DNA from: Chrysomallon squamiferum | Taxonomy: Eukaryota; Animalia; Mollusca | Assembly (NCBI GenBank): GCA_012295275.1 | Contig: CM022677.1 | Span: 20,584,001-20,648,000 of the forward strand | Direction of reading: 5' to 3' | Length of the DNA: 64,000 bases | Part shown: piece after piece, positions 6,689-55,700 of the stretch | How the letters are laid out: the number at the start of each line of letters is the position of its first letter | Position numbering within the stretch: position 1 is the first letter of the stretch | Notes under the pieces: generated by a model | What the model was told of the DNA's origin: nothing | The model's input: only the letters and a program-made list of their open reading frames with translations | Databases searched by the model: none | Made by a program: the position numbers and the translations under genes

Positions 6689-9600
6689 GTGAGTATTCAC
6701 TATACTTTTTTATTTCTTTGTTTGTTCGTTCGATTATTTATGGTTGATCGTGATGAACGTTAACACCATTATTAACTCTTGTATGAATTCATCAGCCAAG
6801 CTCTGGCTATAGATGGGTGCCTCTTTCTACATATGTAGGTATGTTGGTTTGGGTTCTTATACTCGATATCAGTTTGTCCATTGCCTACAGCCTAAACATC
6901 TGTTTTTCAGTCTCTATGAAAATAATTCTTGTTTAACAGTTGTGTCTTTTCTGTTGGAATCCCTCACTTTCAAGTTACTCACTGTTCATTTCCCTTTTCT
7001 TTTTCTTTCTGACCTTGATATATGCCTCTGTGTATCTTTGTTCTTCTTTGTTTCATCAATGAATGGAATGATTAACGCGTCAGTAAATTTAACTTCTTGT
7101 TCAATCTGCTTACATCCGTCAGTGGCGTTCCTAGGCGAATCGTTTGTATCACTGCTTTATCACAGGTTTTCTTTGTTTCTAGGCAGACGAGCAAAAAGGT
7201 TCTCGGAAAAAGGTATGGAAATATACATAGATAGACAGAGAGAAAAACAAATAAGAATGTACATACATATCTGTATCTATCTGCTTGCTATAGGCCAGTA
7301 TAATCTATATAATCTGTATAATCTATATATTTAGTTGCTCTCTAAGTCTCTGTATATTTATACAGAAGACAGATAGATATGTGTATACAAAACACACACA
7401 GACATAAACACACATGTACATAGATAGAAAGACAGAGAGGTTGAGAGTTATATATTGTTTTAATGTACTACAAATCGTGTCGCTGACACATAGATAAATG
7501 GATGGATGCGTGTACTGATGTATGGATAGTTATAGCGTCATAGGCAGATACGCACAACGCTAAAAGGAAAGAGACGGATTAAAAGATGGACTGATGTATA
7601 TACGTATACATACATACATATGTACATATACAGACAGAGAGATAGATAGATAGATAAATAGATAGATAATAGACAGATAGATATATATATATATATATAT
7701 ATATATCTTTACACAGTTCAGGAGAATGATGGATGGACTTCATGGACTTTATTTGGAATAACAAGATGCACTGTAACATGCGGAGAAGGCCATACAGCAC
7801 AAATTATTGTTAGAAAATGCATACCATCGACAGGGGCCTGCAAAGGCAGCAGTTCAGTCTTATATCTTGCATCTTGTAACCCTGACCCTATGTTAGTGCC
7901 TTGTCCTGGTAATTGTCTTACAATGCTATCATGTTTCTATTTATATAATGACTTTATTAGAGCAGGCTACACTCATATATATATATATATATATAAAGAA
8001 AAACAAATATATAGATAAATAATGAAACAATGTAAATACACTAAATATTATTGTTATTGTTATTATTATTGTTATTATTATTGTTGTTGTTGTTACTAAA
8101 ACTGTTTTTGTTGTTTTTCTGGGGTTTTTTAGAGAATATAATTCTACTGGATCCAGATGGCAGTCATTCCCAACCAGGTATGCACGACATTCTGATAACT
8201 AGTTAGGAATGGTTGCTGTTTGATAGATGCTAATACTGCGTGTGTGTGTGTGTGTGTCTGTGTGTGTGTTTATGTGGTGTGTCTGTGTGTGTGTGTGAGA
8301 GAGAGAACAGTCATGGACATGCACAATCATTTAAATTAACTCGGTACTTTTTGGAATCTGTACAAACACGACAAATACACAAGCACAGACAGATAGATGA
8401 ATGGATAGAAATATATATCTATATATTTAAAGAGAGAGAGAGAGAGAGAGAGAGAGAGAGAGATATATATATGTATCATTTGTTTGTTTATCAGTGGATG
8501 GTGGATGGAGTTCGTGGTTCTACGATGATGTAATACAGTGCAGTGTAACGTGTGGTACTGGTTCTAGAATAAGGGTTCTCGTACGAACGTGCACTAACCC
8601 TTCTGTAAGAAACGCCGGAAAGCCTTGCGATGGTGCGACAATGATGTATTCGAATAATGATCCCACATGCAGTACTGGATTCAGCTGTGACGGTGTGTTT
8701 TTAAATTAAAAACTGCTTATTATATTTAATTATGATTATCACTGTCGTTCCTGTCACTGTTTTTAATTCTTGTTGTTATTACTATTTTTATGTTTCTTTC
8801 TTTTGATGCATTCATTGATTCTTTCATTCATTCATTCATTCATATCAATTTAATATTGTTTTATTATTATTATTTAATTACAGATACAACAGCACGTGGT
8901 AAATACGACCAATATTTTTATTTTGTTGAATTTCTCAACGAAATAGTGAGTTGTGAATAAAAAAATATAAAAAATAAAATAAAATAAATAATTAAATAAA
9001 AAGGAAAAGGAAATAACCTAAAAATGGATAAAAATAGACAGAGAAATATATGGTTTCATGCACAGATGGATGAATGCATTCATAAAAGGATGGATTGATA
9101 TCTGTGTATTTGAGTGTGTGTATGTATTTTTATCTATTATGTATGTACGTATGTATATGTGTATACGTATATCTATATATCTATCCATCTCTATACATAC
9201 ACACCCACACATACATATACACGTGCATTCATATATATACATACATACAAACACATTTTTTTAAAGTAAATGGTGGATGGACTATGTGGACAAGAATCAA
9301 TATATCAAGGTGCTCTGTAACGTGTGGTTCTGGATTTACAACTATCACCAAAATTAGACGTTGCACAAACCCGCGTCCCTGGAATGGCGGAAACAACTGC
9401 ACAGGCTACAACGCAATACTTGAATATGGAACGTGTGACACAAGAGCCACTTGTCCTGGTAATTTGTTCACAACGCTGTACTTCTAGTTATGGTGTTATT
9501 GCCTTTTTTGTAGTTTTTTTGTTGTTTGTTCATTTAAACGTGTTATTCATTTTCATTACTATTATGGTTATTACTATTACTATTATTATTATTATTATTA

Positions 9601-52700: not shown

Positions 52701-55700
52701 CCATGTAGTGGTTACAGCCAAAAAATGACGGAGGAAACGTGTGATACTGGAATCAGCTGTGGCGGTAAGTTTCTTAAAATTCTACACAAATAAACAACTT
52801 CTGCTGTATGAGGATAAATACTTGTATGTCGTGACCTGTAGAGTAATCAGCATTAATTATTTATTTACGTACCTAGTTATTTATTTACTTTCTTTTTTAT
52901 TTCACTCTTTCTTTTCTTTTTTAATTTGTTTATTCTTTCATTCATTCGTTGTAATCATGTGCATTGATTAGTTAATTAACTCATTAATTTATTTATTTAC
53001 ATACTTATTTACCTATTTACTTATTTATTTGTTTCTTTGATTCTTTGATTTTTTTTTTTTTTTGCTGTATCTGCATTTATTTATTTATTGATTGATTGAT
53101 TTATTTATTTATTATACTATCTACTTTTTCTGCGTTATTATTATTATTATTCATTCATTCATTCGTTTGCTTTTTATTCATTTGCTTCTTTGTTTCTTTA
53201 TTTACTCTGTGATATACACGTTAATTGATTAAAATTACTTATATAGGTTCAGGTGAGAAAGCTTCAGACAATGACAAAGGTAAGTAATGCTATACAGGCA
53301 ACATTTAAAAGACTAGGTTATTAATTTCTTGACGACACAGCACATTTTTAAATTTTGTGAAATAATTCTAGGTTAGGTTAATAGATTTGAATTATTTTTC
53401 AAAATAAATTAGGAAATTTCCAAGTAAATCATTTTGACTAGCCTTTTATTTATTTAGACATGCATTTATCAATTTCAGTGTGATAATGAAACTAGTTTTA
53501 TCTGGTTAATCTAATCTTGTTGCCTGTTTTACTCTCTGTCTATCACATACATCCAAACTCGTTTGTATTTTATACACTGATAGATAGATTATATGCATAT
53601 ATAGATAATCCAGATATCGCTATATTAACATATCTATATTGCTATATACATACCTATTTATTTATTTATTTATTTATTTAGAACTAACAGCAGAATATAT
53701 GGACTTAGATCAAGGTAAGAACACAGAGAAAGTCAATATTCTTGCAGTTCGGAGACAAAAAAGTTGCACAATTTCTCAAGTTTTATCTGTATCTGGTTTT
53801 AGATTATACGTGTTCTACTAAGACAATACACGAATAAATAACATTTAGTGTAACAGTATTTTTGTTTATTTTATTGTTATTATTTTTTATTTTGTTGTAT
53901 TTAACAGAACAATATATGGATAGAAATCAAGGTAAGAACACGGACAAAGCCAATATTGTTACAGTTAAAAAAACAAAAAAATAAAACACAATTCATAACG
54001 TTTTATCTTTTATCTGTTTCTGTATCTGGTTTTAGACTGTACAGGTCATACTGAAAATAATACACGATATATATATATACTTGTTCAATTATTTTAACTT
54101 GGTCTATTTATTTATTTATTTATTGTTTTTTTTTTATTTGTTTTCTGCTTGTTAGCTTGTTTAGTTATTTTGAACTCAAATACATTTATTCATTCATTTT
54201 TATTCATTCATATTTATTTATTTATTTATGTATTCATTTAATGTATTTCTTTGGTTAATTGTTAGTTTTATTTATTTTTGTCTAAATGTATTATACTGAA
54301 TTATTTTATATATATATATATTTTTTATTGTTGTTTTCATGTTTTATTACAGATTCAAGAAGACCTGTGAAACAAGCTTCTTCTATCGGTAAAATTAGTA
54401 CACATAGAAATAACTGAATGAGACAGAGAGAAAGAAAGAGAGAGACAGAAACACACGCACACACAGACACACACACCGATATAGGGATAGAGAGAAAAAT
54501 ACATGCACATACAAATATATATATATATATATACAGAGAGACAAAGAAAAACTATGGCGATATCTTTCTATCTATCTATCTACGTATATATATGTATGTA
54601 TGTATATATATATATATATATATATATATATATATATATATATATATAGAGAGAGAGAGAGAGAGAGAGAGAGAGAGAGAGAGAGAGAGAGAGAGAGAGA
54701 GAGAGAGAGAGAGAGACTGGATACGATAGAATTACAAAGGAGGAACATTGAGAGAGTAAGTAAATATTTCTTTAATTTTATATTTTCCAGACAAGGACAC
54801 AGAGAAAATGAATACTGCTCTAGGTAAAGAACTTGTACTTTATTATAAACAGTCAAACGTAAAATAGAAGAAAAAAATAAATAATAATAAAAAAAATATA
54901 AATATGTAGGTTATTTTATTAAATACGTTTCAGTTACTTACATCTATTAGGAATTGTCTGTGATATATAATATTGCTGATGTGCAGTAGGATGTTGTTAC
55001 ATTGTAATGTACTTTCTGATTTACTGTATAGCAAATGATACCGTGTAATAGGATATTTTTAAATATTAGAATTATTTTTCTAGGTATGCCATATGAGATA
55101 TTTTATCTCACTATGGTGGCGCTTGTTGTTTTTGCTATACTGGGTCTTTTAGTAATTTTTAGGTAAGTTTGTAGGTTAGAGAAAATAAATGAACACTTAT
55201 TAAGTGAAATAACAGAGATAATATATACGTACAGACATAGACGCACATACATTGATATAGAAATAAACACATGCACATACACTGATAAATAAATATACAT
55301 ATATAGATACACACAAACTGACATAATATATATATATATATATATATATATATATATATTTATATATAATTAAGTATGTATCTATATCAGTATGCTTGTG
55401 GGTGTGCATCTACATACGTATGTCTATTTGTATGTATGTATGTATGCGTGTATGTATATATATATACATATGAAATTAAACAGCAAAAAATATACATTTG
55501 GCATGCAACTGAACTCGCAAATAGAGTAAATCAGTAAAAAAAAAACAAAAATTGAATTTTCTGTCTAAATAAATTAGAAATGCATATTTTGCGACTGACT
55601 TTCTTTTTCTCGCAGGATGAGAACAAAAATATTAAACGTGTTAGAAGACATAAACGATGCAAGCAAAGAAGATAAGTTTGGTGTGACGAATCCAGCTTTC

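What the first reader, a model, noticed from the sequence alone, without database searches (positions are those of the whole stretch)
7717..52764. Diversification is concentrated in the membrane-distal TSP1 domains, not the LRR
Seen: LRR exons are about 90% identical in protein (manual count) and their last ~70 codons are almost invariant. T1 is only about half identical between copies, with indels: LQENDGWTSWTLFGITRCTVTCGEGHTAQIIVRKCIPSTGACKG vs [47 protein letters not shown] vs [49 protein letters not shown]2 and the T1-T2 linker are also strongly diverged while Cys/Trp are fixed. This is the reverse of TLR/VLR/NLR, where the LRR face varies. Inference: TSP1 strands carry specificity under diversifying selection, or the LRR exon is homogenised by gene conversion.
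Basis: partly seen in the sequence, partly recalled or inferred. Interest (0 to 1): 0.78.

Follow-up and report, generated by a model that had tools for sequence, protein, structure and literature searches.

The report
Receptor array diversifying thrombospondin, not LRR
Three tandem copies of a predicted cell-surface receptor gene, likely from a snail, keep their leucine-rich-repeat head about 90% identical while their six thrombospondin repeats change amino acids much faster (40 of 40 changed codons between two copies in repeats 4-6 alter the protein), so the thrombospondin array is likely the variable recognition surface, the reverse of Toll-like and lamprey VLR receptors.

Summary
The window holds three complete predicted genes (A, B, C), the 3' end of a fourth, and a distant fifth on the minus strand. 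Each complete gene reads signal peptide, LRR exon, a 30-nt exon with R-x-K-R, six TSP1 exons, acidic micro-exon stalk, transmembrane helix and NPAF tail. The LRR is 89-93% identical (dN/dS 0.43); T1 and T2 are 40-65% identical. T1/T2 are mostly older, not clearly positively selected: their four-fold sites are 3-6 times more diverged than the LRR's and match flanking introns, with dN/dS about 0.7. The clear selection signal is in membrane-proximal T4-T6: between A and B, 40 of 40 changed codons are nonsynonymous and 0 of 150 unchanged-residue codons differ silently. A conserved furin-type site suggests the LRR is cleaved off. Nearest TSP1 relatives are Gigantopelta 'coadhesin-like' proteins, none with an LRR. 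Ligand and function are untested.

The parts
1..2459 (+). Gene Z, 3' end only: stalk micro-exons, TM exon 1881-1959, tail exon 2336-2459
   Evidence: self-BLAST and motif scan
5260..6688 (+). Gene A signal peptide + LRR exon (476 codons, about 16 LRRs with LRRNT and C-cap)
   Evidence: ORF, Pfam LRR_8 E 1e-34
7183..7212 (+). Gene A 30-nt exon with R-A-K-R, predicted furin-type site
7717..7908 (+). A T1 (aligned acceptor lost; in-frame AG 6 nt upstream; 5 residues deleted, 3 inserted)
8495..8692 (+). A T2 (15-nt linker exon follows at 8884-8898)
9267..9458 (+). A T3
11407..13086 (+). A T4 (11407-11598), linker exon 12066-12080, T5 (12401-12595), T6 (12895-13086): the block with dS about 0 and dN about 0.1 against B
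13492..26128 (+). A stalk: 24 micro-exons (261 aa, 23% D+E, no Cys), most in a ~1.1-kb tandem repeat carrying two 33-nt exons per unit
26378..26861 (+). A TM exon (26378-26456) and tail exon (26738-26861) with FGVMNPAF and C-terminal SEL
29525..30953 (+). Gene B signal peptide + LRR exon
   Evidence: RNA contigs cover it
31369..31398 (+). Gene B 30-nt exon with R-T-K-R
31935..36961 (+). B T1-T6 (31935-32126, 32846-33043, 33716-33907, 35371-35562, 36283-36477, 36770-36961) with linker exons 33336-33350 and 35937-35951
   Evidence: an RNA contig matches T4 from splice site to splice site (record 32)
37658..41531 (+). B stalk (6 micro-exons, 67 aa), TM exon 40990-41068, tail 41417-41531
45369..46797 (+). 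Gene C signal peptide + LRR exon
47190..47219 (+). Gene C 30-nt exon with R-R-K-R
47520..52764 (+). C T1-T6 (47520-47714, 48474-48671, 49408-49599, 51158-51349, 52100-52291, 52573-52764) with linker exons 49070-49084 and 51807-51821
53247..55712 (+). C stalk (5 micro-exons, 53 aa), TM exon 55084-55162, tail 55616-55712 (NPAF kept, last residues lost)
58837..63522 (-). Gene D, distant family member, 3' part: two TSP1 exons, micro-exons, 79-nt TM exon 60144-60066, tail with YGVENPAF and C-terminal TVF

Best explanation
This is a tandem array of predicted single-pass surface receptors whose six TSP1 repeats show excess amino-acid change, likely because they form a variable ligand-contact surface under diversifying selection, while the LRR exon is conserved, likely homogenised by gene conversion, and predicted to be cut from the TSP1 array at a furin-type site. 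Shown from the sequence: the exon anatomy and open frames, purifying selection on the LRR, the nonsynonymous excess in T4-T6, the switching genealogy along the gene. Inferred: conversion tracts repeatedly reset the LRR, T3 and T4-T6 between copies; new amino-acid changes are then favoured in the TSP1 strands; T1/T2 are old lineages kept apart because conversion there would erase specificity. Predicted mechanism: the precursor is cleaved at R-x-K-R, the invariant LRR acts as a cap, chaperone or shared docking subunit, the mature TSP1 rod stands on an acidic stalk of variable length, binds a fast-changing foreign surface (most likely microbial), and is taken up through the conserved [FY]GVxNPAF endocytic-type motif.
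For: A-B T4-T6: 40 of 40 changed codons nonsynonymous, 35 of them single-base; 0 of 150 same-residue codons differ silently; binomial p 3e-5 (about 6e-4 after allowing for the 21 exon-by-pair comparisons); nonsynonymous rate exceeds the intervening introns (45/440 against 15/342, p 0.003). ML dN/dS: LRR 0.43, T1 0.70, T2 0.67, T3 0.98, T4 0.90, T5 1.66, T6 2.24. M2a against M1a: LRR 0.0, T4-T6 32.7, all TSP1 39.0 with 24% of sites at 6.5; 2 of 65 harsh-null simulations reached 32.7. LRR concave-face positions are not enriched for variation (10 of 65 against 47 of 393, p 0.42). Genealogy differs between exons (chi-square 81, 12 df). A-B introns are 21% diverged over T1-T3 against 11% around the LRR and at the 3' end (p 3e-10) and 4% in T4-T6. 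R-x-K/R-R occurs once per predicted protein, at residue 479 in 3 of 3, in its own exon. NPAF is kept in 5 of 5 tails including distant gene D. RNA contigs cover exons and splice at T4.
Against: Only three copies were compared, and no population data. The T1/T2 site-model signal (LRT 9.05) is at the median (8.8) of the harsh null built for T4-T6, so selection on T1/T2 is not shown. LRR four-fold sites are not significantly below flanks for A-B (p 0.15), and A-B synonymous sites in T4-T6 are also below their introns (0/130 against 15/342, p 0.015), so introns may be a fast clock and overstate conversion. The A-B T4-T6 block was picked after seeing the data. Selection on a surface does not say whether it binds a ligand or escapes a binder. 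Cleavage, ligand, tissue and endocytosis are untested; the furin consensus and NPxY/F-type sorting role are recalled knowledge.
Confidence: 0.5

Rival explanations
1. Escape rather than recognition: the LRR binds a conserved host ligand, and the TSP1 rod is the handle that a parasite, microbe or virus grips, so it changes to evade.
For: Selection is spread over all six repeats including the membrane-proximal ones, as expected for an exposed stalk. The LRR is under purifying selection (0.43) and folds like ligand-binding ectodomains such as LGR4 (low-confidence model).
Against: The conserved basic exon would separate the LRR from the membrane-bound part. Several diverged copies are kept side by side, which fits a repertoire better than escape at one locus.
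Confidence: 0.22
2. Age and conversion only for the pattern the reader saw: T1/T2 are simply older because conversion stopped there, with relaxed constraint on exposed strands and no specificity role.
For: T1/T2 four-fold divergence 0.23-0.39 equals flanking introns and is 3-6 times the LRR's 0.06-0.075; dN/dS 0.7; weak site-model signal.
Against: It cannot give 40 of 40 nonsynonymous codons in T4-T6 or dN/dS 1.7-2.2 in T5 and T6. Only 11 of the 47 A-B positions tested (46 coding differences plus one at the exon edge) had either version in a 9-mer shared with another TSP1 exon of the window, so copying from sister exons does not explain them.
Confidence: 0.15
3. Self/non-self or gamete recognition within the species (VERL- or allorecognition-like): variable repeats match a co-evolving conspecific partner.
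For: Abalone VERL has selected first repeats beside homogenised ones (PMC2704960, passages); gastropod source is likely.
Against: Here repeats are not homogenised within a gene: T1-T6 each form their own clade across A, B and C. The diversity is between tandem paralogs, and the tail is endocytic in type.
Confidence: 0.1
4. Assembly artefact: A, B and C are haplotypes or error-laden copies.
For: Microsatellite-rich DNA and a 1.1-kb tandem repeat.
Against: All three frames are open over 994-1211 codons with AG/GT at every junction. Errors would not avoid synonymous sites. All 19 of 19 exonic differences listed when runs were laid on B are A's base, and B-type T2 contigs (6-8 differences in about 375 bases) occur in DNA runs of two studies.
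Confidence: 0.03

Closest known systems
Gigantopelta aegis 'coadhesin-like' TSR proteins (XP_041356387.1, XP_041355522.1, XP_041355521.1, XP_041376992.1)
   Same: Same elongated TSP1 form; best per-domain scores against the window profile (up to 73 bits); two are TSR-array + TM; they group with the window's repeats at 93/94 support.
   Different: No LRR in their annotated sequences, repeats are near-identical within a protein, and the tails lack NPAF. The names are automatic annotation.
Biomphalaria PTC2 / GRC polymorphic single-pass transmembrane clusters
   Same: Clustered, highly variable single-pass genes in a gastropod, linked to parasite resistance (PMC7494358, passages).
   Different: PTC2 genes are reported to have no known domains and synonymous divergence above nonsynonymous; here the domains are defined and T4-T6 show dN far above dS.
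TLR, VLR and NLR/RLP LRR receptors
   Same: An LRR solenoid of about 16 repeats in a tandem receptor cluster shaped by conversion.
   Different: Their LRR face varies (established knowledge, recalled); here it does not, and there is no TIR, NB-ARC or cassette pool.
Cnidarian and sacoglossan TSR proteins in symbiont recognition
   Same: TSR arrays, some with TM, are implicated in symbiont uptake (PMC5446238, PMC7663992; passages). The Elysia Figure 4 legend lists LRR8 among domains of new TSR arrangements (figure not seen).
   Different: The passages read report no selection analysis, tandem array or cleavage site. The WxxWxxW motif is absent here in 18 of 18 repeats.
Duplicates under concerted evolution with a divergence peak (opsins, RHCE/RHD, protocadherins); abalone VERL
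   Same: Homogenised and diverged segments alternate along the gene (PMC3924837, PMC2704960; passages).
   Different: Here a freshly homogenised segment (T4-T6) also shows rapid nonsynonymous re-divergence.

Membership tests
TSP1/TSR domain (group 1, thrombospondin-1 type) | Six Cys in the TSR pattern with CxxS/TC | tested here: met
   6 Cys in 18 of 18, CxxS/TC in 17 of 18; profile hits thrombospondin-1 at E 5e-19
TSP1/TSR domain (group 1, thrombospondin-1 type) | Three-stranded fold | tested here: met
   AlphaFold2 model pLDDT 78, strands 6-15, 21-33, 47-57; Foldseek top hits properdin and BAI1 TSRs, probability 0.99-1.00 but E only 0.015-0.03
TSP1/TSR domain (group 1, thrombospondin-1 type) | Full WxxWxxW and RxR ladder | tested here: not met
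   WxxWxxW 0 of 18, WxxW 16 of 18, RxR 3 of 18; about two extra residues in each strand: an elongated variant
Toll-like receptors | Cytoplasmic TIR domain | tested here: not met
   tails are 31-40 residues
Toll-like receptors / VLR / NLR | Variation concentrated on the LRR concave face | tested here: not met
   10 of 65 against 47 of 393, p 0.42, on the 13 repeats that matched the pattern; no positive-selection class
Variable lymphocyte receptors | Somatic assembly from LRR cassettes | tested here: not met
   each LRR is one complete 1429-nt coding exon; no loose LRR ORFs in the window
Biomphalaria PTC/GRC clusters | Clustered hypervariable single-pass genes | tested here: met
   (paralog variation only)
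Biomphalaria PTC/GRC clusters | Allelic hyperdiversity and association with resistance | not testable with these tools
   contigs show presence only; no phenotypes
Biomphalaria PTC/GRC clusters | Sequence homology to PTC/GRC proteins | not tested
   no direct comparison; the PTC2 paper has 0 occurrences of LRR or TSP
Proprotein-convertase substrates | R-x-K/R-R in an exposed linker | tested here: met
   3 of 3, own exon, only such motif found per protein; consensus recalled
Proprotein-convertase substrates | Cleavage shown | not testable with these tools
   needs protein work

The most novel reading that the evidence does not exclude
An invertebrate variable-receptor system in which elongated TSP1 repeats serve as the hypervariable binding scaffold: a furin-released constant LRR cap unmasks a six-domain TSP1 rod that is diversified by cycles of gene conversion and positive selection, raised on a micro-exon stalk of tunable length, and used to recognise and internalise symbiotic bacteria in a chemosymbiotic snail.
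Probability: 0.2. Interest if true: 0.85.

Novelty: new variant of a known kind. Interest (0 to 1): 0.62.

Why it matters
Diversifying receptor clusters are known in snails and elsewhere, but the variable part is usually an Ig, lectin or LRR face. Here the LRR is the constant part and a TSP1 array carries a strong positive-selection signal. If the array is the binding surface, TSP1 joins the short list of scaffolds used for variable recognition, and the work on TSR proteins in symbiont uptake gains a concrete, testable receptor family with natural variants, a predicted activation cut and a sorting motif.

Tried and rejected
[quoted passage not shown] LRR homolog searches found only 22-37% local matches to generic LRR proteins: none of the 120 best of 713 longer hits lists the TSP1 family PF00090, and 3 hits passed 1e-20 at similar length; both scored only the ~8000 best word-sharing candidates. 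ESM Atlas gave generic arthropod LRR clusters. None of the 150 best TSP1-profile hits carried an LRR by HMM or pattern (4977 hits in all), and none of the 120 best of 1405 in the named search lists an LRR family. The LRR model is weak (pLDDT 57), so concave positions were taken from the repeat pattern instead. Exon shuffling between TSP1 positions was rejected (63 columns, many forks open). Splice junctions and allelic variation of gene A could not be read from RNA; the one completed lay was on gene B and its tables were crowded by a high-copy repeat in the T3-T4 intron. Low cover of B T1 there is not evidence of absence. Paper searches: 'LRR-TSP1' 0 papers; thrombospondin with two vent-snail genus names, symbiont and LRR, 0 papers at 4 of 5 terms; searches listed nothing describing this family (listings and abstract starts; passages read for two papers). 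Figures and supplements were not seen, and Elysia Figure 4 may show an LRR+TSP1 protein. Three look-ups of earlier findings were empty. No complex prediction was run.
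Full report
What is there. The window is animal DNA, 29% G+C and rich in microsatellites. Self-comparison shows a tandem array: the 3' end of gene Z (1-2459), complete genes A, B and C on the plus strand, and a distant member D on the minus strand. Each complete gene has one 1429-nt exon for signal peptide and LRR domain, a 30-nt exon, six symmetrical TSP1 exons with 15-nt linker exons after T2 and T4, a run of short acidic exons, a 79-nt transmembrane exon and a tail exon. 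Joined as predicted, A, B and C give open frames of 1211, 1014 and 994 residues with AG/GT at every junction. RNA contigs laid on B cover exons; one matches T4 from acceptor to donor and two begin at the acceptor before the start codon (records 32, 17, 25). All 19 exonic differences listed carry A's base, so most of that RNA is from A-like copies. Contigs only 82-86% alike to the LRR point to further family members. The other junctions are predicted, not seen.

The observation. LRR identity is 89-93% and the last 70 codons differ at 2-3 residues; T1 is 40-56% and T2 49-65% identical. But T3-T6 vary too (54-87%), and T4 against C is as diverged as T2. So the contrast is LRR against the whole TSP1 array, with T1/T2 the most diverged.

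T1/T2 are mainly old. Four-fold degenerate sites differ at 8 of 35, 9 of 23 and 11 of 33 in T1+T2 against 12 of 167, 12 of 160 and 10 of 167 in the LRR (p 0.01, 2e-4, 6e-5), and do not differ from flanking introns. My own codon models (GY94-type, three sequences, exon-specific branch lengths; not PAML) give dN/dS 0.70 and 0.67 against 0.43 for the LRR. The site test for T1+T2 gives 9.05 (nominal p 0.011), but simulations without positive selection and with strong rate and mosaic noise, built on the T4-T6 data, had a median of 8.8 (65 runs). Positive selection on T1/T2 is therefore plausible, not shown.

T4-T6 carry the clear signal. Between A and B this block was made alike recently: its introns differ at 15 of 342 unmasked sites against 11% around the LRR and the 3' end and 21% over T1-T3. 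Since then 40 codons changed and all 40 alter the residue (35 by one base; changes at codon positions 17, 22, 7), while 0 of 150 same-residue codons differ silently; the LRR of the same pair has 39 altering and 23 silent codons. The binomial p is 3e-5, about 6e-4 after allowing for 21 comparisons. The site test gives 32.7, reached by 2 of 65 harsh-null runs; all six repeats together give 39.0, with 24% of sites at dN/dS 6.5. Of 18 sites with posterior above 0.9, 14 lie in the loop after strand B, in strand C or just behind it (weak, three sequences).

The LRR is constant. It shows no selected class and no enrichment on concave-face positions. Its four-fold sites are less diverged than its flanks for A-C and B-C but not significantly for A-B, which suggests conversion of this exon; the caveat is that introns here may run faster than synonymous sites. 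Which copy is the outlier changes by exon (A in T3, C in T2, T4 and T5; chi-square 81 on 12 df), while each TSP1 position stays its own clade: a mosaic of exchanges between equivalent positions. A review read in passages describes exactly such divergence peaks where selection blocks conversion (PMC3924837), so high dS at T1/T2 does not by itself refute selection.

The 30-nt exon encodes R-A-K-R, R-T-K-R and R-R-K-R, the only R-x-K/R-R found in each predicted protein, a furin-type site by recalled consensus. If cut, T1 becomes the free end and the LRR a cap or separate subunit. The TSP1 domains are an elongated form with about two extra residues per strand and without the third Trp and, mostly, the first Arg of the usual ladder. 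The stalk is 261, 67 and 53 residues in A, B and C. The tail motif [FY]GVxNPAF is kept in 5 of 5 copies including D and resembles NPxY/F sorting signals (recalled).

Relatives and literature. No close LRR relative was found. The nearest TSP1 repeats are in gastropods, best in Gigantopelta aegis 'coadhesin-like' proteins, so the source is likely a gastropod, perhaps a vent snail; this rests on 63 columns. None of those hits has an LRR (0 of 150; 0 of 120 listed). An Elysia study lists LRR8 in the legend of new TSR arrangements (PMC7663992, section 3.2 read, figure not seen), so the domain pairing may not be unique. Ten searches listed no description of this family or of selection on such an array.

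Verdict. The contrast is real and well beyond chance. The likeliest reading is a diversifying, cleavable, endocytic recognition receptor family with TSP1 as the variable scaffold (0.5); escape from a binder (0.22), age alone (0.15) and conspecific recognition (0.1) remain open. It is a new variant of a known kind; interest 0.62.

Noticed in passing
window 14900-24550: A ~1.1-kb intron-exon unit is repeated about eight times in gene A; each unit carries two in-frame 33-nt exons, so stalk length differs four- to five-fold between copies (261, 67, 53 aa).
   Followed up: yes
window 37393-37425: Gene B's first stalk micro-exon has lost its donor: it runs into an (AG)n tract after a deletion relative to A; likely skipped without a frame change. 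A second degenerate micro-exon lies near 38115.
   Followed up: partly
window 7717-7725: The acceptor of A T1 that aligns with B and C is mutated; an in-frame AG 6 nt upstream is the likely substitute, two nearer AGs would shift the frame.
   Followed up: partly
window 33956-35295: A high-copy repeat in B's T3-T4 intron draws far more contigs than its surroundings in DNA and RNA runs; not classified.
   Followed up: no
window 55616-55712: Gene C's tail stops early after NPAFDSH and lacks the S-E-L/I end of Z, A and B; gene D ends in T-V-F. Both ends resemble class I PDZ-binding motifs (recalled).
   Followed up: partly
window 29525-30953: At several LRR positions no contig of the four laid runs showed B's base; a weak hint of copy-number or haplotype variation, since contigs show presence, not absence.
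   Followed up: no
P0131, P0172, P0238, P0271: Four Gigantopelta TSR proteins lie on a contig of the same length (40.8 Mb), suggesting a cluster; repeats within P0131 and P0172 are near-identical, the opposite of this window.
   Followed up: no
window 63679-63999: A 165-bp unit in about two copies inside gene D's intron, possibly with a small exon in each.
   Followed up: no
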